IMG/VR virus record: IMGVR_UViG_2917413769_000002
Span: 1 to 41,543 of that record
From: a virus
Lineage: Duplodnaviria; Heunggongvirae; Uroviricota; Caudoviricetes
Length of the DNA: 41,543 nt
Direction: 5' to 3' (one strand)
Positions 2,259-37,090 of this stretch are shown here, in pieces. The position numbers and the translations under genes are program-made. Under the pieces are notes generated by a model, which was not told the DNA's origin, did not search any database, and was given only the letters and a program-made list of their open reading frames with translations. The number at the start of each line of letters is the position of its first letter. The stretch's first letter is position 1.

Positions 2259-3451
2259 GAGGTCACCGTGAGAGCGATATTATCGGGCTTACAGGACGCT
2301 GATTCGTTGTAGGCAATAACGATATTTGCCGCTGCCACCGAACCGGAAGACTTTCCGATCAACAGCTCGGTAATGTCGTAATAGCGAGCATTACCGCCGC
2401 TCACCACACCGAGGTTCGCCGGGGAGTAAATACGGCTCAACAGCACTGAATCACCGATCGTCAGCCCGTTGATGTAGTCCGCCACCGCCTGCTGAATCTG
2501 CGTGCCGATTTGCGATGTGTAACCGGTGAAGGCCTTCAGCGTGATGTGTCCGAAAACAGGCACGTCGGTTGAGCGAGAAAATCCGACATCATGCGGGTTA
2601 CCGTATTTGTCCGGTACAGAGACAACAGTTGATCCGTAGGGAGTCGTTCCCTGCCCCTTATTCCCCCTGATGGCCTGGGCTATTGCCGTTGCATCCCCAC
2701 CGTCGACAATGGCTGCAATGGAATGAGGCGGCAGTCCGTTGCTGTCAGTTGTGCCCTTGTCGTTTTCGTAGAGCTTGTGACGTGTCACACCAGCAACGTT
2801 GGCAAGAGCGCCATCAACAGCCTCAAACGGTGTAATCGACGGCAACGCAACGCTTTGCCCCTGCCTGACGCGCAGCTCTGCGTCAGTTTCTGCAGGTTCG
2901 CCCACTGTGGCCGCCGTCGGGTTCGTTACCGAAGTCCAGCCACGAGTCGGCGTGTTAATGGTGGTGATTGTCCCGGCCAGCGCCGCTACCGCACCGCTAT
3001 TCGCACATGTGGCCGTAACGATAACTGAACCTCCATCAATGACCACTGAAGGTGGAAGATTCCAGATCACGTTATTGTCGTCTTTAACCGAGCCGTTCGT
3101 GATGGTCGTCCCGGCGGTTCCGGTCAGCTGCAAATCTACGGTAGAGTTTGTCGCCCCATTACGGGCGATACCGTTAATTTTTACATTGCTGGTCAATCCG
3201 GCACCGTACCCGGTCGCAGGGGAAAAGCTGTTGTAGACACTGATGGCTGAGTTATTGGCATCGTGGATCGCCAGCGCTACCAGCGACACAACTTGTCCGT
3301 CCTTGCTGTCCGGGTCAATGTACACATCAGCGCCGTAAATCTGCTGAAAAAAGCTCGTCAGGGTATCGATTATCGTCTGAAAATCAGGTGCGCTAATACC
3401 CTCAGCGGTTACCGTTGCCGATAAGCCGAGTGTGTCCAAATTGAGGGCCAT
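2255..3451 (-). CDS. baseplate J-like protein
   Basis: 398-aa ORF; size and position typical of Baseplate_J family proteins (P2 gpJ / Mu gp47). Confidence 0.8.
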   Translation of the reverse strand: MALNLDTLGLSATVTAEGISAPDFQTIIDTLTSFFQQIYGADVYIDPDSKDGQVVSLVALAIHDANNSAISVYNSFSPATGYGAGLTSNVKINGIARNGATNSTVDLQLTGTAGTTITNGSVKDDNNVIWNLPPSVVIDGGSVIVTATCANSGAVAALAGTITTINTPTRGWTSVTNPTAATVGEPAETDAELRVRQGQSVALPSITPFEAVDGALANVAGVTRHKLYENDKGTTDSNGLPPHSIAAIVDGGDATAIAQAIRGNKGQGTTPYGSTVVSVPDKYGNPHDVGFSRSTDVPVFGHITLKAFTGYTSQIGTQIQQAVADYINGLTIGDSVLLSRIYSPANLGVVSGGNARYYDITELLIGKSSGSVAAANIVIAYNESASCKPDNIALTVTS

Positions 3452-3805
3452 TTATGCCTCGCTGGTTACTGTCGTTGTTCCGTAGATGGTGTCGACTGTG
3501 GTTGTGAACTCAACGCGCCGCGTCGTGGTGTTCACTGTCGTATTGAAAGAGAGAATGGATTTCACGCCACGCGTTTCGAGAATGCGCTGGCGTATCGCTA
3601 GGTTGTAGGTTTCCGGTTTTTGCTTACCGAGAACGGACTGGATCCACGGCGTGCCTGCCGTCGTATCGAGGAACCATTCCCCATACCATAATTCGAATCG
3701 CGTTTTTATCGCCTGCGCCACAGCCTCTGGTGAGTTAATCAGCCAGGTATCATCACCGCTGCCAAAGGTATAATCACCGTCGGCATCTTCACGCCGGTAT
3801 CGCAT
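3452..3805 (-). CDS. baseplate wedge protein (gpW / gp25-like)
   Basis: 117-aa ORF between spike and baseplate-J genes; size and synteny. Confidence 0.55.
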   Translation of the reverse strand: MRYRREDADGDYTFGSGDDTWLINSPEAVAQAIKTRFELWYGEWFLDTTAGTPWIQSVLGKQKPETYNLAIRQRILETRGVKSILSFNTTVNTTTRRVEFTTTVDTIYGTTTVTSEA

Positions 3806-3807
3806 GT

Positions 3808-4461
3808 TTAACCTCCCAGCGGCGCGGTATTGCTGCCGCCACTCTGTACGCCACCGTGCTTGTGTTTGTCGACGATAGAACCATCCACCAGCTGCAGGCG
3901 TCCGTCAGGCAGTATTTTCAGCCCATTCAGGTCGAACCCTCCCGGCGCGGTACCGGTTATCGCCCCGCTTGATGGGTTTAGGCTCAGCTTGGTCTCGCCA
4001 TCGTCACTACGCAACTCCACGCCGCTGGTGCTGATACCGCCGATTTTCTGCGCCTGCGACTGTGGTCCGACAATGCAGAACGCATCTGATAAATCATGCA
4101 CCCTATCGTCGACGGGCTCCTGCACACCGCCGCTTTGCCACCAGAAATCGATGCAGCGATCGGCAAATATCACCAGACATTCATCACCGGCCTTCACCGG
4201 GAACGTTAGCGTGCAACCGCCGCCGCGCGGAAACACCACCGGCACATCCACCAGCAGCGGATAATTATTCGTAATGCGCTTCCCGTCGTTATCGGTTTCA
4301 ACCGAACGGATAGCAGGCTGCACTACCGCAGTTACTGTTCCCGGGTCGAATGACTGAACGATTCCAGGCAACGCGACACGGATCTGGTTTTTTGTTGTTT
4401 CCCGCTCAGATTTGAGGGTTTCGGCAAGATCGCCGCTGCGGGTCTGGTCAGATACTGCCAT
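3808..4461 (-). CDS. baseplate spike / assembly protein V-like
   Basis: ATG at 4461 with GGAG 9 nt upstream; the longer ORF-track start at 4500 is a read-through of the upstream terminator hairpin; position upstream of W-J-I. Confidence 0.6.
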   Translation of the reverse strand: MAVSDQTRSGDLAETLKSERETTKNQIRVALPGIVQSFDPGTVTAVVQPAIRSVETDNDGKRITNNYPLLVDVPVVFPRGGGCTLTFPVKAGDECLVIFADRCIDFWWQSGGVQEPVDDRVHDLSDAFCIVGPQSQAQKIGGISTSGVELRSDDGETKLSLNPSSGAITGTAPGGFDLNGLKILPDGRLQLVDGSIVDKHKHGGVQSGGSNTAPLGG

Positions 4462-4478
4462 TTGGTAGACTCCAGAAA

Positions 4479-4504
4479 GCAAAAAACCTCGCCGAAGCAA
4501 GGTT
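4479..4504 (-). terminator. intrinsic terminator after the exported-protein gene pair
   Basis: minus-strand AACCTTGC-TTCG-GCGAGGTT followed by TTTTTT; 8-bp stem with one G-U pair and a UUCG tetraloop, read directly from the sequence. Confidence 0.7.
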
Positions 4505-4534
4505 TGAGAAGTGATTGTAAATATTTACAGGGAG

Positions 4535-5032
4535 TTACTTAAACATCCGATAAGTTACCTGTCCGTTAGGTTTGGTCAGGCTGCCATAGCACTCAATTGT
4601 ATGAATAACCTTAACATTAAAATCATTCAGCCCTGAGTAATGAAGAGTGAAGTAATACTGCTTTGGACTCACCGTGTCATCTATGCCACTTTCTGTTTGT
4701 TCCGTATCAAACGTCTCAGGCCTAGTTAGGGTATTTCGAGCAATATCCTTGCACGCGAAAATGACATTATTTTTAGCAAGAACATCGACAGGAAGCTGGT
4801 TCTTTTTAGCCTCATCAGCAAGTTCTTTTTCATAAATGGCCTTACGCTTAAGCCTTGCAGTTTCTTTTTCTTCTGCTGACCGGATGGCCGCCTTATCACT
4901 CTCACTTCTTGATTCAGCAGGCTTACTTCGCGCCTGACTCGCTTGATCTTCCTCTTGGCTCGTATCAAAAATCGCATACGCCGCAAATCCAATCACAGCC
5001 AATAACGCAATCCTTAGCATTTTTGTGAACAT
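4535..5032 (-). CDS. membrane-anchored hypothetical protein (moron)
   Basis: 165-aa ORF; N-terminal hydrophobic segment LRIALLAVIGFAAYAIF followed by a charged low-complexity linker and a C-terminal domain; locally AT-rich; followed by its own terminator. Confidence 0.5.
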   Translation of the reverse strand: MFTKMLRIALLAVIGFAAYAIFDTSQEEDQASQARSKPAESRSESDKAAIRSAEEKETARLKRKAIYEKELADEAKKNQLPVDVLAKNNVIFACKDIARNTLTRPETFDTEQTESGIDDTVSPKQYYFTLHYSGLNDFNVKVIHTIECYGSLTKPNGQVTYRMFK

Positions 5033-5037
5033 GGCCG

Positions 5038-5382
5038 TCAGTCCTTAATATTCTTACACGGAAACGAGCCAATTACTCTTGGAGCATCCATACTGTTTTG
5101 GAGAAGCTGGACATTCAGGAAAGATTTCCCGTTACGCTTCACAAATTCAAAGCCATAATTGTTGCCGTCACGCGCAGGCATCAGCCCCATATTCCACACA
5201 GCCTTAGATTCATCACCTTGAGCGCCGAGGTATTTTACTTTTTGACTTGTGACTAATTCGCCGTTAATACGCACAAGGCCTTCAGCATCCGATAATGTCA
5301 TCTTATAGCCGCCGCACTGGAAAGCTGCGAAAGAAGGTAACGAAACCAATAGCCCAACCAGCAACGCATATTTTCTCATCAT
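5038..5382 (-). CDS. secreted hypothetical protein with Sec signal peptide (moron)
   Basis: 114-aa ORF; N-terminus MMRKYALLVGLLVSLPSFAA looks like a cleavable signal peptide; two Cys in the mature part; sits inside the baseplate cluster. Confidence 0.5.
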   Translation of the reverse strand: MMRKYALLVGLLVSLPSFAAFQCGGYKMTLSDAEGLVRINGELVTSQKVKYLGAQGDESKAVWNMGLMPARDGNNYGFEFVKRNGKSFLNVQLLQNSMDAPRVIGSFPCKNIKD

Positions 5383-6449
5383 CCACCCCGGTTAAAAGCT
5401 TCCTGAGTTTTAATATCCACCGCACCACGCGCCTCGCACATCATATCCATGTACCACGCTTGGCCCCTTGTGTCGCCAGTGTACATAATCCCGCGTACAA
5501 TATAAACGCCATCCGTGGCGATGCTGGCTGTCATTTGCTTGGACACTGGCAGCGCTACGTTCGAATTGCCGTTTATGGTATCGTCGAAATAACGACCAGC
5601 CGTCATGGATATGTCGTTACCCGGTAGCGCTGTTTTGTATACCGACGCTTGATCCAGCTGAATGAGCCCGTTAACCCGGATGTTCGGGTTTATCAGCGCG
5701 CGAACGTTCACACCGTTACCGATGGTCTGCTGCGGCATGCCGATCAGCCCGGTGGCGCTGTTGAGCACAATCGCTTCGTGAACATACTCGTTATTCGCCA
5801 CCATCTGGCGCTGACCGTCCACGAACAGCCAGGTTGCACCACATTGTCCAGCCACGTTATCCATAAGATGCCGGGTCATACCAAACAGCACCCGGCCCCG
5901 GGGGAATACGGTGGCAGGCATTTCAGCCGTCAGGCCTTCAGTCGCACCTTTAGCCTCAAAATCTTTCATCAACGCGCGGTTCACATCTGCGACCGTATAA
6001 CCGGCTGCCAGCGTCTGCGAGGTTATGCTAGTGGCAAAAGCCAGATCCGTATCCGCTGCCTGAATCAGGACATAGGAATCAATGGGATTCTCCTTACCAG
6101 TCACCGAGTATCGAATTTCGCCGCTGTAAATCAGCCCATAGTTTCGCCCATCGCTCTGACCCACATCTGCCGCGTCAACCTCTCGCACCTTTCCGACGTC
6201 GCTGGCCGATACTTCCGGCGCTATGCCGTCGTAACCGGCGATCAGTCGCACCTTTGAAAACTCTTTACCGGTGATCCGATTTGAGGTATCGGCTGACAGG
6301 TTGTAAATCTTGAAGGTTCCCAGCCGGGACGCGCTGCTGATGTTGAACCAGTCGATCGTAAAGGTCACCTTAAAATCGCTAAGCTCAATGCCCTTCCCAT
6401 TCTCGTCCACGAGCTGCAGCTCGAAATGTCTCATCCAGTTCAGTGACAT
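5379..6449 (-). CDS. baseplate hub / tail protein D-like (Mu gp44, P2 gpD position)
   Basis: 356-aa ORF downstream of tape measure and small tail proteins; size and synteny. Confidence 0.55.
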   Translation of the reverse strand: MSLNWMRHFELQLVDENGKGIELSDFKVTFTIDWFNISSASRLGTFKIYNLSADTSNRITGKEFSKVRLIAGYDGIAPEVSASDVGKVREVDAADVGQSDGRNYGLIYSGEIRYSVTGKENPIDSYVLIQAADTDLAFATSITSQTLAAGYTVADVNRALMKDFEAKGATEGLTAEMPATVFPRGRVLFGMTRHLMDNVAGQCGATWLFVDGQRQMVANNEYVHEAIVLNSATGLIGMPQQTIGNGVNVRALINPNIRVNGLIQLDQASVYKTALPGNDISMTAGRYFDDTINGNSNVALPVSKQMTASIATDGVYIVRGIMYTGDTRGQAWYMDMMCEARGAVDIKTQEAFNRGG

Positions 6450-27290: not shown

Positions 27291-27711
27291 CTAAAAAATG
27301 CGGACCGCACTAGCACTTTTTTGATTATTTTGAATGCTCACTACGGCGTCCATTTCCAGGCGAACATCCAGCATCGACAGGCAGCCTTCAATGAATCCCT
27401 CGGCAAGCAGCATCTCTATGCGTATCTGCTTTTCGCTTTTCTTCCTGCGCTTCGCCATCTGCCGTTTTGAATACCGGAGAATATAATGCCCGACCAGCAA
27501 GTGATAATCGTATGGGCATTTTTTTTATCAGGCGTGCCATGCAGCCCTCGATAATCAGCCCATCGTCGTCGGTACACATGATCCGCGTTTTGCTGGTTTG
27601 CGGAAGCAGCCCCTTAAAACCAGCAGCGATGGAAGAATAATCAATATTGCATGAATCGCTTGCCGCCCACGCGCCCCACATATCAAGAACCTTTTGCATA
27701 TCACGCATCAT
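27291..27711 (-). CDS. late antiterminator Q (QuuD-type), interrupted by an apparent frameshift (ORFs 27388-27711 and 27291-27500)
   Basis: N-terminal ORF MMRDMQKVLDMWGAWAA...IDYSSIAAGFKGLLP...CTDDDGL is Q-like as recalled; C-terminal continuation ...SMLDVRLEMD... in another frame; T8 run at 27519-27526 is the most likely shift site. Confidence 0.6.
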
Positions 27712-28679
27712 GCAGCCACCTTTTTCTTATAGAAAACCTGCTCACGGACCTGATCACCGTTCATGAGCATGTCGTTGAAATCGCCGTTATCAGGCCAGCG
27801 CACGCTGACTTTAACGATGTCATTTTTCGCCATGAGATTGGCGTGGGCGCACTCGAACGCCGCCGCCTGGCCGGTGGCAGAGTGTTTATCCATATCAGCG
27901 AAAATAACCAAGTGTTTTACCCCCGCCGGCGCACGGAATTTCTTCATGAAATTGCTGTTCATCACCGCCCAGGTATTCACGCCGTAGATCTGATAACAGG
28001 ACAGCGCCGTTTCGATACCCTCGGCGATCCCCAGCGTTGAGGAAACCGGAAACATGCGAATGGCTACAGAGCGGGCATATTCGAGATAGTTGTCTTCCTG
28101 CAGGGATTTTTGCCGTTTGGCGCTTTCGCCCAGCGGCGCTTTGCGATCCCCTTCGAGCAACGTCCGATGGAGATAGCACAGCTCACCTTTATCATCGGTG
28201 GCGAGGGCGTAGAGGACGTGATAAATCTTGCCAGCATGGCGCTGCTTATCGCAAAACCTGATGGCTTCAGCGGGTAATTTGTTGATCCCGCGCTGACGGA
28301 AATATCCGGCACCATTGGTACCGTGCAGAGCCGGAAGTTTTGAAAACTTGCTGATCACCCGCTGGCGCAGCTTCGCGGCGGAGCTGTGGGCAGGGATTTT
28401 TTCACGCTGGTAGTCATTACCAATAAGCTGATCCACCTCGGCGCAGAGTGCCGAGAAGGTTTTACTGGTCTGCGTGGCCGAAAGCAACTTCATGCCGTCG
28501 CCGCTGCCGCACACGCAGATCCATGTACCGGCACCATCGCGATCGTCTATACGGAACTTACCGCGTGCGCTGCATACCGGGCACTCCCCTTTGTAGTGGT
28601 TTTTCCCGGTTATTGGTGGCAGGCCGTAATGCTCAAATATTTCGGGCCAGCGGCCTTTCGCCGCTTCTGCTGTCTTCAC
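27708..28679 (-). CDS. DNA primase (zinc-binding + Toprim, P4-alpha / TraC-like)
   Basis: N-terminal Cys cluster CPVCSA...CVCGSGDG (zinc-binding); Toprim-like acidic motifs later; GTG start coupled to helicase stop. Confidence 0.7.
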   Translation of the reverse strand: MKTAEAAKGRWPEIFEHYGLPPITGKNHYKGECPVCSARGKFRIDDRDGAGTWICVCGSGDGMKLLSATQTSKTFSALCAEVDQLIGNDYQREKIPAHSSAAKLRQRVISKFSKLPALHGTNGAGYFRQRGINKLPAEAIRFCDKQRHAGKIYHVLYALATDDKGELCYLHRTLLEGDRKAPLGESAKRQKSLQEDNYLEYARSVAIRMFPVSSTLGIAEGIETALSCYQIYGVNTWAVMNSNFMKKFRAPAGVKHLVIFADMDKHSATGQAAAFECAHANLMAKNDIVKVSVRWPDNGDFNDMLMNGDQVREQVFYKKKVAA

Positions 28680-30292
28680 GCTGTTCTTCTCCCCAGCATA
28701 CTACGAATGTTAGCAACCTGATTTCTGGCGTTGATGATCCGGTTTGTGGTGTTGTCGGCGGGCTCCTCCGGCTGACTGCCGGACCTTTCCCGCCCCTTCG
28801 CAAATTTGATCTGCTTGTGTTTGATGTAGTTGTTTACCTCAGGGGTAATCTCCATCGGGAAATCGCTCAGCCCATTGGGCCACTCGTCGAATTTTTCGCG
28901 GAATGTATGCGCGCACCAGCCGTCACTGATGGGTTTACCCATAGAATTACGCTGGCGCTGATAGAATTTGATTTGGCTCCACCAGGACTGTTTGTCCGAC
29001 TTGGTGTAAACCTTTTCGCCCTTTTTGAGCTTTTTGATATTTCGCTGGGTGTCGGTTTCCACATCCTCCCCCACCAGTGGCTTAAAGCCGCATTTCGGGC
29101 AGACGTAGACGCCAGCAGGCTTCATGAAATGGCATTCCGGGCATTCCTTCGGAAGTTTTTCCTCCCGCTCCTCAGCCGTGCGGGCTGCGGCCTCTTTCAT
29201 GCCATCGTTTTTGGACGGGAGATCGTTGTACTCAATCGCGTCAGGAAACCCCAGGCGGTGGACGGTGCCACTGTGATCGAAGATGAGACAGGCGTCTTTG
29301 CCCGGTGCAGTGCGAAGACCGCGCCCGAGTGCCTGAAGCCAGCGAATTTCGCTTTTCGTCGGACGGGCGTAAATGACGCAGCGAACATCACTGTCGAAGC
29401 CCGCCACCAGCACGCCGACGCTGACAATGATTTTTGTCGCGCCAGTTTCAAAGCGGTGGATCATCAGCTGGCGTTCTTCGTGCGGCGTTTCGGCCACCAT
29501 CACCTCAGCATTCACGCCCGCTTTGTTGAACTGCATCGTGACGTAGTTGGCGTGGGCCTTATTGACGCAGAACGCCACTGTCGGAAGGTCCCGGCCGTTA
29601 CGCAGCCAGTTATCGACAATATCGCCCACCAGGTCAGAGCCGCACATAATCTCCGCCAGCTGCGCTTCGTCGTAGTCGCTGCCATACTCCATCGACGCTT
29701 TAGTTTTAACGCCTTTCAGATCCGGCTTTGTTGGCGCGTAAAATTCGTAATTACTCAGATCGCCACGCTGGATAAGCTCGCCGATGGTGGTCGGCTTGAT
29801 AAGGCGCTGGTAGTAATTCCCCAGGAAAGGTGAAAATGGGGTTCCCGACAGGCCGATAACCTTCGCTTTGGTTTCCGTGGTGATCCGCTCAATCTCTTTC
29901 AGAATGCGGCGTTTGCGCAGATGGGCTTCGTCGATAATCAGCAGATCGATATCCTGCGGGAATTCCCGGCGGATCAGCGTGTCGGCGCTGGCAATCTGGA
30001 TCTGCAGGCTGGGGTCATAGTTCGGATGGTCACGCCAGATAAAGCTGATCTGGTCTTCCGGAAGACCATACTGAGCGAAGCGCTGCGCCGTCTGGTTGAT
30101 CAGGATGGTGTAAGGGGCGACAAAGAGAACGCGCATACCACGGCTTACCAGACCATCAGTAACGAAAGCAGCCAGTCCAGTTTTTCCGCTGCCGGTCGGC
30201 ATATACATCATGAAAGATTCATAGGCCTTCCAGTCGCGGCGCAGCATGTTCAGCGCGCGTTCCTGTGCAAAATTTGGTGTGATGTTCAGCAT
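28676..30292 (-). CDS. SF2 (DEAD/DEAH-box type) replicative helicase
   Basis: Walker A MPTGSGKTG, DEAH-like box LIIDEAH, motif VI-like QALGRGLR; C-terminal Cys4 zinc finger CPECH...CPKCG; ATG 30292 with AAGGGG upstream. Confidence 0.8.
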   Translation of the reverse strand: MLNITPNFAQERALNMLRRDWKAYESFMMYMPTGSGKTGLAAFVTDGLVSRGMRVLFVAPYTILINQTAQRFAQYGLPEDQISFIWRDHPNYDPSLQIQIASADTLIRREFPQDIDLLIIDEAHLRKRRILKEIERITTETKAKVIGLSGTPFSPFLGNYYQRLIKPTTIGELIQRGDLSNYEFYAPTKPDLKGVKTKASMEYGSDYDEAQLAEIMCGSDLVGDIVDNWLRNGRDLPTVAFCVNKAHANYVTMQFNKAGVNAEVMVAETPHEERQLMIHRFETGATKIIVSVGVLVAGFDSDVRCVIYARPTKSEIRWLQALGRGLRTAPGKDACLIFDHSGTVHRLGFPDAIEYNDLPSKNDGMKEAAARTAEEREEKLPKECPECHFMKPAGVYVCPKCGFKPLVGEDVETDTQRNIKKLKKGEKVYTKSDKQSWWSQIKFYQRQRNSMGKPISDGWCAHTFREKFDEWPNGLSDFPMEITPEVNNYIKHKQIKFAKGRERSGSQPEEPADNTTNRIINARNQVANIRSMLGRRTA

Positions 30293-30420
30293 TATCAACC
30301 CCTTTACGTTTCACTCTTCCAGGAAAAACCTTTCCCGATTTCTTACCCGACCAACTGCGCATCACCTTGCTAGTACAGTGGCGATTTTGGGCTCTGTCTC
30401 TGAGATCAGCACCTACCTAA

Positions 30421-30620
30421 CCAATGGAGCTGCCTTCTGGAAAAGGCCTATTCCCATCCCTCTCCGATCTCCCCCCTTACCCCCCTCTTACCTCTCCCTT
30501 ATTCATGTACTAGATAGCTAGTACAATCAGGCGTAAAAAAAGTAAGTGGGTGGTCCCAGCTTCATCAGCAGCTGACGCCTTTAAGTCAGACTGCAACCAG
30601 GCACCTTTAAGCCCGGTATC
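30421..30620. promoter_or_regulatory. candidate origin / early-promoter region with repeats
   Basis: ~50-nt polypyrimidine tract with CTTAC-type repeats (30445-30500), perfect inverted repeat TGTACTAG-ATAG-CTAGTACA (~30488-30510), two CCTTTAAG copies. Confidence 0.35.
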
Positions 30621-30621
30621 G

Positions 30622-30915
30622 TCAGGCGCGCTGTTGCGTTCCTGCCAGAGGCGGCTGGGCCGTGTAGCCCTGAATTGCCCGCCCGTGTGTTTCAACGAAC
30701 CTGCGAAGCCTCACGTTGGCTTCATGCCTTGCCCGGTTCTCCCTGCGGTATGTAACCGGCTCGGCGTCAAACGTGATTTCGTAAACCTCTGCGTACTTCA
30801 GCGCGACTTTGCGGCGGAGGGACGGAGGCAAACTCAGTAACTGCTGCTGGATCCACGCTGCATCTGCCTGGCTGTAAGCCAATGGCAGATCAACCTGCAC
30901 ATAATCCGGGTACAT
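30622..30915 (-). CDS. hypothetical protein in the cII position
   Basis: 97-aa ORF from ATG 30915 with GGAGG 4 nt upstream; immediately downstream of cro; basic C-terminal region. Confidence 0.45.
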   Translation of the reverse strand: MYPDYVQVDLPLAYSQADAAWIQQQLLSLPPSLRRKVALKYAEVYEITFDAEPVTYRRENRARHEANVRLRRFVETHGRAIQGYTAQPPLAGTQQRA

Positions 30916-30932
30916 ATCGCCTCCGGGGCATG

Positions 30933-31193
30933 TCACACCTCGCTTTGCTCTGCGTGACTTGTTCCGCGTAACGTTTCAGGTAGTCCGTCATCAGTGCTTG
31001 GATATAAATCAGGGCGAATTTCATGTGGAATGACCTTCCAGCCCGTCAACTCACAGAGCTGTAATACAAATCGAGGCGGGATAACTGACTTGCTAAACCA
31101 CTGATTTACTGCCTGAGGCGTGATCCCTAACCCTTTAGAGATAGCGCGCTGAGAGAGCAATTCCCCCAAACGAGAGCGAACGATTTCGTTCAT
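30933..31193 (-). CDS. cro: Cro-like / YdaS-family HTH repressor
   Basis: 86-aa ORF divergent from cI; HTH ...ISKGLGITPQAVNQW...; SD GGTGA upstream of ATG 31193. Confidence 0.7.
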   Translation of the reverse strand: MNEIVRSRLGELLSQRAISKGLGITPQAVNQWFSKSVIPPRFVLQLCELTGWKVIPHEIRPDLYPSTDDGLPETLRGTSHAEQSEV

Positions 31194-31200
31194 AAATCAC

Positions 31201-31289
31201 CATCAAGTTAAATTTGATATTGAATGTAATATATCAAGTTTTAATTAACATGCAACACAAACACTTCTCATGTAGACTTGATATCAAGG
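31201..31289. promoter_or_regulatory. OR-like operator region between cro and cI
   Basis: three sites sharing ATCAAG/CTTGAT half-sites: ATCAAGTTAAATTTGATAT (31201-31219), TATCAAGTTTTAATTAACAT (31231-31250), perfect palindrome CTTGATATCAAG (31276-31287). Confidence 0.65.
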
Positions 31290-31345
31290 ATTGCTTTATT
31301 TTTATGCGTGATAATCTTGCGAGTAACCGACAAACTGGGAGAGGT

Positions 31346-31919
31346 TATGGACACCACAAACACGATCAACGAACTGCTAAAAATGAAGGGCTGGACTCAG
31401 CGAGAACTGGCTCGCAGGCTCAATGTCAGCGCCCAATCAGTTCAATACTGGACAACGGGGAAAACATTCCCAAGAGGTAAGCGACTTGCGCGGCTTTCGG
31501 AGATCAGCGGTCTCCCGCAATCATGGTTTCTTGGCGAGAAACAAAGCACGACTTTCCCTGCGGCCGCTGCACCAGATGAGCAGACTGATAGCGTTACTTT
31601 TAAGGTTCTTGATGTTGAATTCAGTTGTGGTGATGGGACGAGTGTAAAGGGGGACTTTGTTGATGTTGTCAGGTCAATAGAACTTGATCCAGAGTACGCC
31701 CGCCAGCTCGTAGGTAATAGACCATTCAAAAATATCGAGATAGGTAATGCTCGTGGGGACAGCATGTGTCCCACTATAGCCCCTGGAGACCTACTATTTC
31801 TCGATAAAACAGTTACATACTTTGATGGTGACGGGATCTACGCTTTCTGTTTTGATGGGGAATGTTATGTAAAAACGCCTGCAAAAGGTTGGCACAAAAA
31901 TAGTGGTCTTATCCGATAA
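31346..31919 (+). CDS. cI: CI-like repressor (HTH-XRE + S24 LexA-like peptidase domain), 3' end frameshifted; intact frame would end at 32025
   Basis: SD GGGAGAGG before ATG 31346; HTH ...WTQRELARRLNVSAQSVQYW...; S24 motif GDSMCPTI; removing one A from the A5 run at 31871-31875 restores ...YVKRLQKVGTKIVVLSDNANY... including the canonical VKRL. Confidence 0.8.
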
Positions 31920-32774: not shown

Positions 32775-33602
32775 ATGAAAAAGGTTATTTTCGCTGTTCT
32801 GATTTCCGCCGCCGCTGCTGGCCTGACTGGCTGCGATCGTGTCGAACCCGGCAACGTAGGTATCAAGGTGAACAAGCTGGGCGACGACAAAGGCGTTGGT
32901 GAGGTTGTCGGCGTTGGCCGCTACTGGACCGGCTGGAACACGGAGGTCTACATCTTCCCGACCTTCAAACAGATGAAAACCTACGACGACGCGTTCAATT
33001 TCCAGATGAGCGACGGTACGACAATCGGTTATCACATCGGCGTGGCGTACAAAGTTGATCCAACCAAAGTTACCACCGTTTTCCAGACCTACCGGAAAGG
33101 CGTGGACGACATTACCGATACCGACCTTCGACAGAAGATCGCCGATGCGCTTAACCGTCTTGCCAGCCGCATGAGCACCGACAAGTTCATTGATGGTGGT
33201 AAAGCGGATCTGCTGGAAAGTGCCCTGAAAGAGATCCAGTCCGACATGGGGCCGGTCGGCATTCAGGTTATTAGCCTCTCCTATGTTGGCCGTCCGGAGT
33301 ACCCACCGACTGTTATCGACAGCATCAACGCCAAAGTCACCGCCAACCAGAAGACGCTGCAGCGCGAGCAGGAGGTGAAACAGCGTGAAGCTGAAGCCAA
33401 CATGCTGCGCGCGGAAGCGGATGGCCAGGCAGACGCAAAACTGAAGCTGGCAGAAGCCGAAGCGAAATCTATCCAGATCCGTGGGCAGGCCATGCGTGAA
33501 AACCCCGAGGTGCTGCAGCTGGAAGCCATTAACAAATGGAACGGCACCCTGCCGCAATACATGACCAGCGGCGCTGGCACTCCATTTATCCAGGTTAAGT
33601 AA
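32775..33602 (+). CDS. SPFH / band-7 (prohibitin-like) domain lipoprotein
   Basis: N-terminal lipoprotein signal ...AAAAGLTGC; SPFH-like core followed by an Ala/Glu/Lys-rich coiled-coil (...QREQEVKQREAEANMLRAEADGQADAKLKLAEAEAK...). Confidence 0.7.
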   Translation: MKKVIFAVLISAAAAGLTGCDRVEPGNVGIKVNKLGDDKGVGEVVGVGRYWTGWNTEVYIFPTFKQMKTYDDAFNFQMSDGTTIGYHIGVAYKVDPTKVTTVFQTYRKGVDDITDTDLRQKIADALNRLASRMSTDKFIDGGKADLLESALKEIQSDMGPVGIQVISLSYVGRPEYPPTVIDSINAKVTANQKTLQREQEVKQREAEANMLRAEADGQADAKLKLAEAEAKSIQIRGQAMRENPEVLQLEAINKWNGTLPQYMTSGAGTPFIQVK

Positions 33603-35484: not shown

Positions 35485-35667
35485 ATGAGTACAGACTTCA
35501 TGACAGAACAAGAGGTTTCTGAGTTGCTTCAGAAAAAAAGAACAGCTTTATATAACCTCAGAAAAAAACATGGTTTCCCTGAGCCAGTCCTCACCCACCC
35601 AGCGAGATATAGCCGCAAAGCCGTGGAAAACTGGATCAGTGCAGGCGGAGTTAACCGAGCTGTTTAA
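35485..35667 (+). CDS. AlpA / excisionase-family HTH protein
   Basis: 60-aa ORF; position next to and convergent with the integrase. Confidence 0.6.
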   Translation: MSTDFMTEQEVSELLQKKRTALYNLRKKHGFPEPVLTHPARYSRKAVENWISAGGVNRAV

Positions 35668-36820
35668 CGTGCCAGAGGATTTTATCAGCATACAGCTCGT
35701 AAGCTGCTTTCTGCTCAGGTAACCAGTCGTGTTTATTATACACGGCCATCACCCCGCCAAGCTCGTGCCCCAGCATCTTTTCGGTGACATGGGGCATCAC
35801 CCCTTCTGCAGATAAATTCGTTACCAACGAACGGCGGAAATCATGCGTTCGCCACTCCGGGATATCGATTTTACCTCTCAATTTTTTCATATAGAGATTT
35901 GACGACGAACGGTCTATAGCGCGGTCAAGCGTCTGTCCGGGAAACAGCACAGAGTTCCCACTATTCAGCAGCCGCTCAACATAGGGTTTAACCTGGTCAA
36001 AGATAGGCCGTCGGATGACATTTCCCATCTTGGAATGCTCAGATGGAGTCGTCCAGATCAGATCATCCATATTGAACTCATCCGGCGTTGAAAGCCGCAG
36101 CTCAGATAAGCGTGGTCCCCAGAGCAATAGCAGCTGGTGCAGCACTTTATTGGAGGAGACGATCTTGTTATTTTCCAGTGCCAGCCAAACCTTCGCCAGT
36201 TCGGTGTATGTTAACACCCGCTCACCGACGTCAGGCTTCTTGCCTATGGTTTTCACACTTAACTTCATCAGCTCGCATGACGGAACCAACTGCCGGCTGA
36301 TGCACCAGTTAATTACCGAGCGTAGCTGTAACAGCAGAACGCGCGCTTTCTTTTTGTTCAGGCTTTCCTGTTTATCGAAAAAACGCACCCATGCAGAAAC
36401 CGGTACATTCGCCACTGGCGCATCTTCAAATTGTGTGTACATCGTGTTGTACACGACCGATTTATAAAGCGTCTGGGTGTTGGGCTTCAGACCGGATGCA
36501 TACTTATCCCACCACTGATCAAGGCATTCTTTGAGTGTCAGCTCGCCATCTTCACGGGCAAAATAATTTTTGGGGTTCACACCCTTCGTGTACAATGCGC
36601 GCATCTCACCGACGATAACCCTAGCGTCCTTGAGGGATGTCGAAGGATAGCGGCCAACCGTCAGGCGCACTGGTTTACCGTTCCATCGATAACGATACTG
36701 AAAAGTGATTGTGCCAGTTGGCGTGATCCGGGCACTGAGACCATCACCATCGGTGATTTCTGGTGCCGCAGAATACGGTTTACCGTTGATGCTCCGTAGT
36801 TTAGTGTCGCTGAGTGCCAA
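35651..36820 (-). CDS. int: P4-type tyrosine integrase
   Basis: C-terminal catalytic region ...WRTHDFRRS...GHELGGVMAVYNKH...; N-terminal ALSDTKLRSI...KPY... block typical of P4-family integrases; likely TTG start at 36820 (ORF track extends to 36931). Confidence 0.8.
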   Translation of the reverse strand: MALSDTKLRSINGKPYSAAPEITDGDGLSARITPTGTITFQYRYRWNGKPVRLTVGRYPSTSLKDARVIVGEMRALYTKGVNPKNYFAREDGELTLKECLDQWWDKYASGLKPNTQTLYKSVVYNTMYTQFEDAPVANVPVSAWVRFFDKQESLNKKKARVLLLQLRSVINWCISRQLVPSCELMKLSVKTIGKKPDVGERVLTYTELAKVWLALENNKIVSSNKVLHQLLLLWGPRLSELRLSTPDEFNMDDLIWTTPSEHSKMGNVIRRPIFDQVKPYVERLLNSGNSVLFPGQTLDRAIDRSSSNLYMKKLRGKIDIPEWRTHDFRRSLVTNLSAEGVMPHVTEKMLGHELGGVMAVYNKHDWLPEQKAAYELYADKILWHVKQLG

Positions 36821-37015
36821 TGCGCTATATCCTGTACACAAGGGTTTCAGGCATTCTGTACTCAATCTGTACTCAATGGCAAGTGAACGAACGCAAATAT
36901 CAGCATAAACAAGCTGGTAAATGATGAACAAAGACGCACTTACATCTTGATGTCAAAGCAGTAAAGGCGGTAGAATCAGCATCACGGTGAACAACCAAAA
37001 ACATCGCCGATCAAT

Positions 37016-37090
37016 GTCCCCTTAGTTAAATGGATATAACGAGCCCCTCCTAAGGGCTAATTGCAGGTTCGATTCCTGCAGGGGACACCA
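37016..37090 (+). tRNA. argW: tRNA-Arg (anticodon CCU), argW-like
   Basis: 75 nt: 7-bp acceptor stem GTCCCCT/AGGGGAC, T-arm GCAGG-TTCGATT-CCTGC, anticodon loop CTCCTAA, 3' CCA encoded. Confidence 0.9.

What the first reader, a model, noticed from the sequence alone, without database searches (positions are those of the whole stretch)
30421..30620. Repeat-rich region upstream of the helicase-primase genes: candidate origin
This intergenic stretch has a ~50-nt polypyrimidine tract with CTTAC-type repeats, a perfect 8-bp inverted repeat with 4-nt spacer (TGTACTAG-ATAG-CTAGTACA) and two CCTTTAAG copies. The replication module uses a primase and SF2 helicase rather than lambda O/P, so an iteron-containing origin near these genes is plausible.
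Basis: partly seen in the sequence, partly recalled or inferred. Interest (0 to 1): 0.4.

Follow-up and report, generated by a model that had tools for sequence, protein, structure and literature searches.

The report
Conserved non-coding element before phage helicase
The repeats are real and belong to a 330-base non-coding region, almost invariant across hundreds of related prophages (including Shiga-toxin phages), that always sits just before the phage's helicase and primase genes and may be its still-unmapped replication origin, though an RNA control element is not excluded.

Summary
They are pieces of one larger element: the 329-nt gap (30293-30621) on the minus-strand early operon, between a 104-aa gene of unknown function (phrog_852) and the SF2 helicase and Toprim primase genes. 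This gene pair is the 'Eru1' replication unit described for Stx phages.

The core (about 30403-30502) reads, in mRNA sense: a purine tract with G6-TAA-G6, a small hairpin ending CCTTTTCCA, then a box CAT.GGTTAGGTAG..GATC. Across 70 non-identical relatives it is more conserved than the upstream coding sequence and shows no codon periodicity. Every real hit lies in the same gene order.

The 20-bp palindrome is one of two sites that bracket the core about 148 bp apart. Their sequence type changes like a cassette between phages. The two CCTTTAAG copies are not iterons. They are loops of two hairpins with strong compensatory covariation that fold in the mRNA-sense strand.

No Rfam family matches and no paper found describes the element.

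Best reading (confidence about 0.45): the core is the replication origin of this module, possibly activated by transcription through an R-loop-prone G-rich tract. Main rival (about 0.3): an RNA leader that controls helicase and primase expression. Neither can be settled by computation.

The parts
30622..30936 (-). 104-aa gene (p104, phrog_852). Function unknown. Always the gene immediately upstream of the element.
   Evidence: PHROG hit at 1.6e-37 and no Pfam hit. Syntenic in all real hits. AF2 model has three helices at pLDDT 62. The motif ENRARHEAN.RLR.F is invariant.
30596..30617 (-). Hairpin 1: 7-bp stem with 8-nt loop UUAAAGGU.
   Evidence: Over 48 distinct instances, 88% of cells are paired and 6/7 pairs show compensatory changes. 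0/500 shuffles reach the score. G.U 40 against A.C 6 indicates folding in the minus (mRNA-sense) strand.
30570..30591 (-). Hairpin 2: stem CUGAC/GUCAG with loop UUAAAGGC.
   Evidence: Same evidence as hairpin 1.
30535..30562 (-). Weak terminator-like hairpin (30562-30544) followed by a U7 run (30541-30535).
   Evidence: RNAfold of 40-nt segments shows a hairpin next to a T-run 50-56 nt before the G core in most type-A relatives. The window's copy fails the terminator scan. It is absent in type-B relatives.
30506..30525 (.). Site P1: perfect palindrome TGTACTAG-ATAG-CTAGTACA.
   Evidence: In 48 loci P1 starts 39-43 nt before the first G run. Half-sites vary independently, as in a protein binding site.
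30453..30502 (-). Purine tract (44/50 purines) with G6-TAA-G6 at 30485-30471.
   Evidence: Weighted conservation is 0.85-0.96 over 70 loci. Top G4Hunter score of the window. G-run lengths range from G4 to G9 among relatives.
30439..30454 (-). Small hairpin GGAAUAG-loop-CUUUUCC, ending in the invariant CCTTTTCC(A).
   Evidence: The stem is invariant and the loop varies in length and sequence (GGCC, CGUC, GGC). Other variants carry an extra GYGC-GAA-GCRC mini-hairpin with a compensatory change.
30403..30432 (-). 3' box CAG.T.CAT.GGTTAGGTAG..GATCT, with a Dam site (GATC) at 30404-30407.
   Evidence: Conservation 0.78-0.85. GATC lies within 30 nt of GGTTAGGT in 70/71 loci. An exact-pattern scan finds it almost only in this synteny.
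30358..30377 (.). Site P2: degenerate copy of the 20-bp site (minus strand TGTACTAG-CAAG-GTGATGCG), 148 bp from P1.
   Evidence: P1-to-P2 spacing is 146-152 bp in 43 of 48 loci.
30313..30330 (-). Conserved pre-RBS box GGTTTTTCCTGGAAGAGT.
   Evidence: Conservation 0.82-0.88 in both type-A and type-B relatives. It is complementary to the purine tract and to CUUUUCCAG, but without covariation.
28676..30292 (-). SF2 DEAD/DEAH helicase (Eru1A-like), ATG at 30292.
   Evidence: Pfam ResIII, DEAD and Helicase_C; PHROG 16.
27708..28679 (-). Zn-ribbon/Toprim primase (Eru1B-like).
   Evidence: Pfam Toprim_3, Zn_Ribbon_Prim and DUF7146; PHROG 510.

Best explanation
The 329-nt gap is a composite cis-acting region of an Eru1-type replication module (p104, SF2 helicase, Toprim primase).

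Core. I read the invariant core (purine tract with G6-N3-G6, a small hairpin, and the GATC-containing GGTTAGGTAG box) as the module's replication origin. It is bracketed by two 20-bp palindromic sites about 14 helical turns apart.

Proposed mechanism (inferred, not shown):
1. Early rightward transcription from the cro promoter runs through the region.
2. The G clusters lie on the non-template strand, so the nascent purine-rich RNA tends to stay on the C-rich template as an R-loop. [quoted passage not shown]
3. This opens the duplex without a lambda-O-type initiator.
4. The helicase loads on the opened DNA and the primase primes it.
5. The flanking palindromes bind an unidentified dimeric protein that sets specificity or timing.

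Upstream part. The UUAAAGGY hairpins, with a weak terminator in this lineage, act at the RNA level on the same transcript. They probably meter read-through into the core and the replication genes.

Shown: anatomy, conservation, synteny, hairpin covariation, strand of folding.
Inferred: origin function, R-loop formation, and the role of the palindromes.
For: - Strict synteny p104 -> element -> helicase -> primase in 72/72 exact-pattern IMG/VR hits and in 24/24 Enterobacterales species (gene checked wherever the fetched locus reaches). It also holds in 66 of 69 real 3'-box hits.
- Core conservation is 0.85-0.96 with no 3-nt periodicity. Over the same loci p104 falls to 43-58% amino-acid identity and the helicase to 64-75%.
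- The module is modular. Flanking sites occur as exchangeable types around the same core: A is TGTAC-N10-GTACA, B is TTTAG-N4-CTAAA/AGACGT-like, C is TAGTTGC-like.
- The palindromes are not cI/Cro operators. The window's operators at 31193-31278 are unrelated, and immunity clusters are shared between types.
- Half-sites vary independently and spacing is tight, as expected of protein sites.
- G clusters are on the mRNA-sense strand, with the window's highest G4Hunter score.
- A Dam GATC lies in the 3' box in 70/71 loci.
- The same slot in Vibrio phage 1.115.A holds 3-4 AT-rich 17-nt direct repeats.
- The Eru1 papers describe no origin for this module.
- Two G runs on the non-template strand form a primer-tethering hybrid G-quadruplex and R-loop at mitochondrial CSB II (PMC3488243).
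Against: - There is no experimental evidence of any kind.
- The window has no AT-rich unwinding element and no tandem iterons.
- No protein co-varies convincingly with the flanking-site type. L019 has p104 93% identical and primase nearly identical to the window's, but type-B sites. Upstream and downstream gene clusters do not track type.
- GC skew only mirrors gene orientation.
- Mirror symmetry beyond the G runs is only 2-3 nt and not significant, so H-DNA is doubtful.
- The upstream hairpins clearly act in the RNA-sense strand.
- The conserved boxes are mutually complementary, which also fits an RNA switch.
- An R-loop or termination event here would also block expression of the helicase it is supposed to recruit.
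Confidence: 0.45

Rival explanations
1. The whole gap, core included, is a structured RNA leader of the helicase-primase mRNA. The UUAAAGGY hairpins, possibly bound by p104 through its invariant Arg-rich helix, and the terminator-like hairpin attenuate transcription. The purine tract, CCUUUUCC, UUUUUCCU and CUGGAAGAG boxes form alternative pairings, or an RNA G-quadruplex, that gate elongation or translation of the helicase.
For: - Hairpin covariation, and G.U 40 against A.C 6, place function in the mRNA-sense strand.
- A hairpin plus U-run occurs in most type-A relatives.
- The purine tract can pair with CCUUUUCC (9 bp) or with UUUUUCCU near the RBS (8 bp). CUUUUCCAG can pair with CUGGAAGAG. 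CCUUU is complementary to the SD-region AAAGG.
- All elements have a fixed orientation relative to the genes.
- The window has no internal promoter, so the region is transcribed as part of the operon.
Against: - RNAalifold finds almost no consensus structure over the region: -8 kcal/mol and a single 9-bp helix.
- The core is conserved at the sequence level with essentially no compensatory changes.
- The fold z-score of the window's leader is only -1.95.
- No Rfam family matches, even at E<=10.
- The flanking 20-bp sites behave like DNA protein sites, not stems.
- The UUAAAGG hairpin has no second copy in the leftward operon, as a nut site would.
Confidence: 0.3
2. The core with its two palindromes is a DNA-level regulatory site rather than an origin. 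Two operators bound by an unidentified dimeric regulator, from the phage or the host, loop about 148 bp of DNA. This forms a roadblock or switch for transcription entering the replication genes.
For: - Two well-conserved 20-bp imperfect palindromes have independent half-site variation and constrained spacing of 146-152 bp.
- The site types change like cassettes, as immunity specificities do.
- All three CTAGTACA copies of the window lie here.
Against: - This does not explain why the sequence between the sites is the most conserved part.
- No candidate regulator co-varies with site type in 1.6 kb upstream or 4.5 kb downstream.
- The sites are unrelated to the cI/Cro operators.
Confidence: 0.15
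3. The conservation reflects a recombination linker at a module boundary, spread by frequent exchange, or a small unrecognised gene, rather than a cis-acting function.
For: - The region is a mosaic junction. Hybrids exist, for example L153 with type B upstream and type A downstream, and L019 with the central piece replaced.
- Mobile ORFs (phrog_1347, HNH) are inserted just after it in Fels-1, P13374 and others.
- Several database records annotate ORFs across it.
Against: - Conservation persists at helicase identities of 64-75% and across genera from Escherichia to Yersinia, Serratia and Providencia.
- The alignment has 1-nt indels, and the spacer alternates between TAA (an in-frame stop) and TTT. 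There is no 3-nt periodicity and the annotated ORFs differ in frame and strand.
- The internal architecture (spacing, hairpins, GATC) is preserved, which a mere homology patch would not require.
Confidence: 0.05

Closest known systems
Eru1 replication unit of Stx phages (TL-2011c, P13374; Llarena et al. 2021, PMC8044961)
   Same: Same gene set and order: cI | cro, a small gene, an SF2 DEAD/DEAH helicase (Eru1A), then a Toprim protein (Eru1B). P13374 carries a recognisable variant of the element between ORF34 (a p104 homologue) and the helicase: GGGGG-TAA-GGGGG ... CATAGGTTAGGTAGATC.
   Different: The papers define the unit by its proteins only. Neither mentions an origin, an intergenic element or repeats. 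This window is not an Stx phage. Its p104 is 100% identical to a protein of Escherichia sp. E1130. It lacks the phrog_1347 ORF that P13374 and Fels-1 carry between the element and the helicase.
Lambda ori (iterons plus AT-rich region inside gene O, activated by pR transcription)
   Same: It lies next to the replication genes in the pR operon, downstream of cro. It has palindromic, protein-site-like repeats. Transcription passes through it. (The properties of lambda ori are from my own knowledge.)
   Different: It is intergenic, not inside an initiator gene. It has two sites bracketing a G-rich core instead of four tandem iterons followed by an AT-rich tract. There is no O/P-type initiator or loader, and no matched binding protein was identified.
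Transcription-primed R-loop origins: mitochondrial CSB II (PMC3488243); ColE1 RNA II and T4 oriF/oriG (own knowledge)
   Same: Two long G runs separated by 1-3 nt lie on the non-template strand of a transcribed region next to where replication must start. CSB II shows that such a motif gives a stable R-loop and hybrid G-quadruplex and primer 3' ends. CCCCCCTTACCCCCC, the window's + strand motif, also occurs verbatim in the two vertebrate mitogenome papers that the sequence-string search returned.
   Different: No hybrid, primer end or RNase H dependence has been shown here. The phage element has extra conserved parts (the GGTTAGGTAG/GATC box and flanking palindromes) with no counterpart in those origins. 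The resemblance is one of mechanism, not homology.
Lambda nutR-tR1 region (N-utilisation hairpin followed by a terminator)
   Same: Downstream of cro there are hairpins with a conserved loop and covarying stem, followed in many relatives by a terminator-like hairpin with a U-run. A small basic protein with an Arg-rich helix is encoded next to them.
   Different: The loop is 8 nt (UUAAAGGY), not a GNRA-like pentaloop. No boxA was seen. There is no second copy in the leftward operon. p104 has no similarity to N proteins.
RSF1010-type oriV with ssi hairpins used by a plasmid helicase/primase pair (own knowledge)
   Same: A dedicated helicase plus primase sits next to a conserved non-coding segment that contains small, very stable hairpins. 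Some variants contain the GCGAAGC mini-hairpin sequence.
   Different: There are no iterons with a RepC-like initiator and no paired ssi sites on opposite strands. The proteins are unrelated.

Membership tests
Initiator/iteron-type phage or plasmid origin (lambda ori, P1 oriR, P4 ori) | Several repeated binding sites for an initiator | tested here: inconclusive
   There are two 20-bp palindromic sites, P1 at 30506-30525 and P2 at 30358-30377. They bracket the core and are not tandem iterons. The Vibrio relative has 3-4 true direct repeats in this slot.
Initiator/iteron-type phage or plasmid origin (lambda ori, P1 oriR, P4 ori) | Adjacent AT-rich DNA-unwinding element | tested here: not met
   By sequence reading there is no AT-rich stretch of 30 bp or more. 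The segment between the sites is purine- and G-rich. Only a T7 run and a short A4 tract are present.
Initiator/iteron-type phage or plasmid origin (lambda ori, P1 oriR, P4 ori) | A cognate initiator whose specificity co-varies with the repeats | tested here: inconclusive
   p104, helicase and primase phylogeny broadly follows site type. Recombinants L019, L031 and L042 break the link. Cro/cI and neighbouring ORF clusters do not track type.
Initiator/iteron-type phage or plasmid origin (lambda ori, P1 oriR, P4 ori) | Supports autonomous replication, or maps as the initiation site | not testable with these tools
   This needs cloning, marker-frequency analysis or 2D gels.
Transcription-primed R-loop origin (ColE1, T4 oriF, mitochondrial CSB II) | G-rich non-template strand in the direction of transcription | tested here: met
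   The G6-TAA-G6 motif and 44/50 purines are on the minus strand, which is the sense strand of the cro-p104-helicase operon. This is conserved in all relatives.
Transcription-primed R-loop origin (ColE1, T4 oriF, mitochondrial CSB II) | A transcript actually traverses the element | tested here: inconclusive
   Operon layout and the lack of an internal promoter imply read-through. A weak terminator-like hairpin lies 50 nt upstream. No transcript data are available.
Transcription-primed R-loop origin (ColE1, T4 oriF, mitochondrial CSB II) | Persistent RNA-DNA hybrid, with its 3' end used as primer | not testable with these tools
   This needs DRIP or S9.6 mapping, rnhA genetics and primer mapping.
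Any curated RNA family (Rfam 15) | Match to a covariance model | tested here: not met
   The only hit at gathering score is the tRNA at 37016. At E<=10 only two chance lncRNA matches at 11 bits appear.
nut site (boxA plus boxB) for N-type antitermination | boxB hairpin with conserved loop and covarying stem | tested here: inconclusive
   A hairpin with a conserved loop and covarying stem is present. Its loop is 8 nt (UUAAAGGY), unlike known boxB pentaloops (own knowledge).
nut site (boxA plus boxB) for N-type antitermination | A copy in each early operon, plus boxA | tested here: not met
   The only minus-strand copies in the replication region are at 30577-30611, and none lies downstream of cI on the + strand. 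No CGCTCTTA-like boxA was seen on reading.
Intrinsic terminator (tR1 analogue) | GC-rich hairpin immediately followed by a U-run | tested here: inconclusive
   The window copy fails the scan. Relatives such as L129, L073 and L115 have hairpins of -11 to -14 kcal/mol abutting T-runs. The feature is absent in type-B relatives.
Eru1 replication unit (PMC8044961) | SF2 DEAD/DEAH helicase followed by a Toprim protein, in place of O/P downstream of cI/cro | tested here: met
   Pfam and PHROG hits. Synteny with P13374 and Fels-1 and shared p104 homologues.
Eru1 replication unit (PMC8044961) | Third gene eru1C (DUF1367) | not tested
   In this window the gene after the primase is a short Q-like ORF. 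DUF1367 was not searched for.
H-DNA-forming mirror repeat | Homopurine mirror repeat with arms of about 10 nt or more | tested here: inconclusive
   Arms are 8-9 nt (AGAGGGGGG | GGGGGGAGA). Symmetry beyond the G runs extends 2-3 nt, with p about 0.05-0.2 per locus.

The most novel reading that the evidence does not exclude
Eru1-type temperate phages, including the Stx2a phages of the O104:H4 and O103:H25 outbreak strains, start replication without a sequence-specific initiator. Early transcription through a CSB-II-like G6-N3-G6 tract forms an R-loop or hybrid G-quadruplex. The phage SF2 helicase and Toprim primase use this as their entry site. p104 and the UUAAAGGY hairpins decide how much transcription reaches it. 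This would be a bacterial-virus counterpart of mitochondrial primer formation.
Probability: 0.15. Interest if true: 0.8.

Novelty: new variant of a known kind. Interest (0 to 1): 0.55.

Why it matters
The Eru1 replication unit is carried by Stx2a phages of highly virulent EHEC strains. It has been linked to less stable lysogeny (PMC8044961, PMC8951638). Neither paper describes its origin or its cis-regulatory DNA.

This analysis defines one compact, extremely conserved element with clear sub-parts that can be mutated one by one. The P13374-type variant alone is present in 134 of 5426 complete E. coli genomes. If the core is the origin, it gives a handle on how these phages replicate and amplify stx. 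It may also be a rare bacterial example of R-loop or G-quadruplex-assisted initiation.

Even if it proves to be an RNA leader, it is an undescribed, covariation-supported regulatory element. It also corrects several database annotations that place ORFs across it.

Tried and rejected
- **Known RNA families.** Rfam at gathering score and at E<=10 gave nothing.
- **Sigma-70 promoter inside the gap.** None found on either strand. Hand-inspected -10/-35 candidates next to P1 are not conserved among relatives.
- **Palindromes as cI/Cro operators.** Rejected. The window's operators are unrelated, and immunity clusters are shared between site types.
- **LexA, CRP or DnaA boxes.** Reading the sequence showed no match (no CTG-N10-CAG, TGTGA-N6-TCACA or TTATCCACA).
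- **Long-range stem between P1 and P2.** An 8-bp complement exists in the window (I8). Half-sites in relatives do not change in a compensatory way.
- **Protein-coding reading of the tract.** Rejected. The alignment has 1-nt indels, the spacer alternates between the stop TAA and TTT, and there is no periodicity.
- **Which protein matches the flanking-site type.** The helicase C-terminus, primase, p104, upstream ORFs and downstream ORFs were compared. None fits cleanly.
- **p104 function.** No Pfam or PDB sequence match. The AF2 model has low confidence (pLDDT 62), so no fold search was run.
- **GC skew.** It only follows gene orientation.
- **H-DNA mirror symmetry.** Weak.
- **Plasmid collection.** Only circularised prophage-size Klebsiella records matched, with no annotated ori.
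- **Literature.** Searches for the sequence motif, the Eru1 origin and phage R-loop origins found no description of this element.
- **The 'RepL' label of the Vibrio ORF next to the iterons.** Pfam and PHROGs do not support it.
Full report
**Setting**

The window carries a lambdoid prophage that ends at an integrase (35651-36931) next to tRNA-Arg(CCT) at 37016-37090. Around the finding the genes are:
- a cI-like repressor on the + strand (31278-31919)
- a divergent Cro-like gene (30933-31193, minus strand)
- a 104-aa gene of unknown function (30622-30936, minus strand; phrog_852, no Pfam hit; called p104 here)
- a 329-nt gap
- an SF2 DEAD/DEAH helicase (28676-30292, minus strand)
- a Zn-ribbon/Toprim primase (27708-28679, minus strand)
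- a short Q-like gene

This is the 'Eru1' replication unit described for non-lambdoid Stx phages (PMC8044961). The finding lies inside the gap, so the biologically relevant strand is the minus strand, which is the mRNA sense of the early rightward operon.

**Observation**

- The palindrome TGTACTAG-ATAG-CTAGTACA lies at 30506-30525, with 0.01 matches expected by chance.
- A third CTAGTACA lies at 30370-30377. That makes three copies against 0.41 expected.
- CCTTTAAG lies at 30578-30585 and 30604-30611.
- The + strand is 44/50 pyrimidine over 30453-30502 and contains CCCCCC-TTA-CCCCCC.

Within one window the G-run motif and the CCTTTAAG pair are not statistically remarkable. Their reality comes from comparative data.

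**Conservation and synteny**

A helicase-based search returned 80 IMG/VR loci at 73-98% amino-acid identity. An exact pattern for the core (G6-W3-G6-RG-N20-45-CCTTTTCCA) hit 72 viral contigs, all arranged p104 -> element -> helicase -> primase.

A looser pattern hit 27 species-representative genomes. Of these, 24 are Enterobacterales: Citrobacter, Enterobacter, Yersinia, Serratia, Atlantibacter, Pseudescherichia, Trabulsiella and others. All 24 show this gene order wherever the fetched locus reaches the flanking genes. The 3 hits outside Enterobacterales lack the genes and are chance matches.

The 3' box alone (CATNGGTTARGTAGATC) hit at least 120 viral contigs. Among 73 new ones:
- 66 have the helicase just downstream
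- 4 are chance hits with none of the genes and no context resembling the element
- 2 loci end before the helicase position and could not be assessed
- 1 (L240) is a remnant prophage that kept p104 and the element but lost the replication genes

Known phages with variants of the element include Salmonella Fels-1, Klebsiella prophage-derived phages, Providencia PSTCR3 and the Stx2a phage P13374 of E. coli O104:H4. The P13374 variant occurs in 134 of 5426 complete E. coli genomes.

A position-weighted conservation profile over 70 non-identical loci shows three non-coding peaks:
- the core at about 30502-30412 (0.85-0.96)
- GGTTTTTCCTGGAAGAGT at 30330-30313 (0.82-0.88)
- CTTAAAGGTG at 30611-30602 (0.90)

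The p104 coding sequence scores 0.53-0.90 and has codon wobble. The segments between the peaks drop to 0.30-0.50. Indels of 1 nt, a TAA/TTT/AAA spacer and differing annotated frames exclude a conserved ORF.

**Anatomy (mRNA sense, 5' to 3')**

1. Two hairpins (30617-30596 and 30591-30570) with loops UUAAAGGY. Relatives have one to three.
2. A weak hairpin plus a U7 run (30562-30535).
3. Site P1 (30525-30506).
4. A purine tract with G6-TAA-G6 (30502-30453).
5. A small hairpin GGAAUAG-loop-CUUUUCC (30454-30439). Its loop varies in length and sequence. In other variants it is preceded by a GYGC-GAA-GCRC mini-hairpin that shows a compensatory U-A/C-G change.
6. The box CAG.U.CAU.GGUUAGGUAG..GAUCU (30432-30403). 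GATC lies within 30 nt of GGTTAGGT in 70/71 loci.
7. Site P2 (30377-30358).
8. The pre-RBS box, then the SD and the helicase ATG at 30292.

**The CCTTTAAG copies are RNA-sense hairpin loops, not iterons**

Forty-eight distinct hairpin instances were aligned. In them, 88% of cells form standard pairs, against 75% in shuffles and 18-45% when the partner is slid. Six of seven pairs show changes on both sides, and 0/500 shuffles reach the covariation score. G.U pairs outnumber A.C by 40 to 6. The hairpins therefore fold in the minus (mRNA) strand and not in its complement.

In many type-A relatives a further hairpin abuts a T-run 50-56 nt before the G core. The window's own copy fails a standard terminator scan, and type-B relatives lack it.

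No second copy of the hairpin lies in the leftward operon and no boxA was seen. A nut-site reading is therefore not supported.

**The palindrome is one of two bracketing sites that behave like protein binding sites**

In 48 loci two 20-bp sites of consensus YGTAC(Y)(N)G-N4-C(N)(R)GTACR bracket the core. P1 starts 39-43 nt before the first G run. P1-to-P2 spacing is 146-152 bp, and 157-158 bp in one variant. Half-sites vary independently rather than in a compensatory way.

Other phages carry different sites around the same core:
- TTTAG-N4-CTAAA/AGACGT-like sites (L048 group, L019, L031, PSTCR3)
- TAGTTGC-like sites (P13374)

The sites are not cI/Cro operators. I could not assign a binder:
- The helicase C-terminal domain is equally conserved across site types.
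- L019 has p104 93% identical and primase nearly identical to the window's, yet has type-B sites.
- No upstream or downstream ORF cluster tracks site type.
- p104 phylogeny correlates with site type only in the broad sense that everything here is co-inherited.

**The core: DNA or RNA?**

RNAalifold finds almost no consensus structure (-8 kcal/mol). Its only helix is a 9-bp pairing of GGGAGAGGU with GCCUUUUCC around the G runs. The window's leader folds with z = -1.95.

A scan of all column pairs shows that the conserved boxes are mutually complementary. The purine tract can pair with CCUUUUCC or with UUUUUCCU, and CUUUUCCAG can pair with CUGGAAGAG. Because these boxes barely vary, there is no covariation to support or refute the pairings.

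At the DNA level, the G clusters are on the non-template strand and give the window's highest G4Hunter score. Mirror symmetry beyond the G runs is short and not significant. There is no AT-rich unwinding element. GC skew simply follows gene orientation.

A positional argument for an origin comes from Vibrio phage 1.115.A. There a phrog_852 homologue is followed by a terminator, then 3-4 AT-rich 17-nt direct repeats, a small ORF, an SF2 helicase and a primase.

**Interpretation**

I favour, at 0.45, the view that the core is the origin of this initiator-less helicase-primase module. A transcription-dependent opening mechanism is plausible. Two G runs on the non-template strand are exactly what produces the stable R-loop and hybrid G-quadruplex at mitochondrial CSB II (PMC3488243). 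From my own knowledge, ColE1 and T4 also use persistent transcripts at their origins, and lambda's ori needs transcriptional activation.

The upstream hairpins, with the terminator in this lineage, would then set how much transcription enters the core. This is inference.

The main rival, at 0.3, is that the whole gap is an RNA leader or attenuator for helicase-primase expression. A looped operator pair without origin function (0.15), and a recombination linker or hidden gene (0.05), are less likely.

**Comparison with what is known**

The protein module is a member of the Eru1 unit. The non-coding element is not described in the two Eru papers or in any other paper the searches returned, and it matches no Rfam family.

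It fails the lambda-type origin definition on the AT-rich element and the cognate initiator. It meets only the sequence prerequisite of R-loop origins. I therefore file it as a new variant of a known kind (a phage replication-control region or candidate origin), not as a member of any defined origin family.

**Verdict**

- The element is real, widespread, strongly constrained and undescribed.
- Its mechanism is open and directly testable.

Noticed in passing
Fels-1 L155:4511-4879; P13374 L154:4490-4867; L019, L020, L029, L031, L036, L042, L044, L086 (between element and helicase): Many relatives carry an extra ORF inserted exactly between the element (after P2) and the helicase start. It is either a 122-125-aa phrog_1347 protein with a PD-(D/E)XK-like motif, or an HNH-like ORF in L019. 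In L029-type loci it is flanked by repeated copies of the 20-bp site. This looks like a hotspot for mobile or homing genes. The window lacks the insert.
   Followed up: partly
L001:5111-5497 (QBP07862.1), L157:3538-3894 (QPB12004.1), window 30246-30521 (+): Database records annotate 'hypothetical proteins' on the opposite strand across the element or across the p104 homologue. The window has a matching 91-aa + strand ORF. These are almost certainly spurious calls caused by the low-complexity C-rich strand.
   Followed up: partly
window 30622-30915: p104 is 100% identical to a hypothetical protein of Escherichia sp. E1130, and its closest relatives are in Citrobacter. This suggests where the window comes from.
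   Followed up: no
window 35651-37090: A tyrosine integrase (Arm-DNA-bind_3 plus Phage_integrase) lies next to tRNA-Arg(CCT). GC content drops to 33-42% beyond 37 kb. This is probably the prophage end and attachment site.
   Followed up: partly
window 5480-5499: This is the only other exact TGTAC-N10-GTACA in the window (TGTACATAATCCCGCGTACA). It could be chance: 12% of shuffles give 2 or more matches.
   Followed up: no
window 27388-27711: The Q-like antiterminator ORF after the primase is only 107 aa and matches positions 1-68 of the 118-position Pfam model. It may be truncated or a short variant.
   Followed up: no
L240 (IMGVR_UViG_2537561991_000013) 3263-5900: A remnant prophage keeps the cro-like gene, p104 and a complete element but has lost the helicase and primase. 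Terminase genes follow about 1.6 kb later.
   Followed up: partly
window 32775-33602: An SPFH/Band 7 family protein is encoded in the leftward early region of the prophage. This is unusual cargo and a possible defence or membrane function.
   Followed up: no
L153 (=L043), L019, L031/L042: These loci are hybrid elements. One has type-B sites upstream with a type-A site downstream of the same core. Others have a type-B central piece between window-like p104 and primase genes. This indicates recombination within the conserved core or hairpins.
   Followed up: partly
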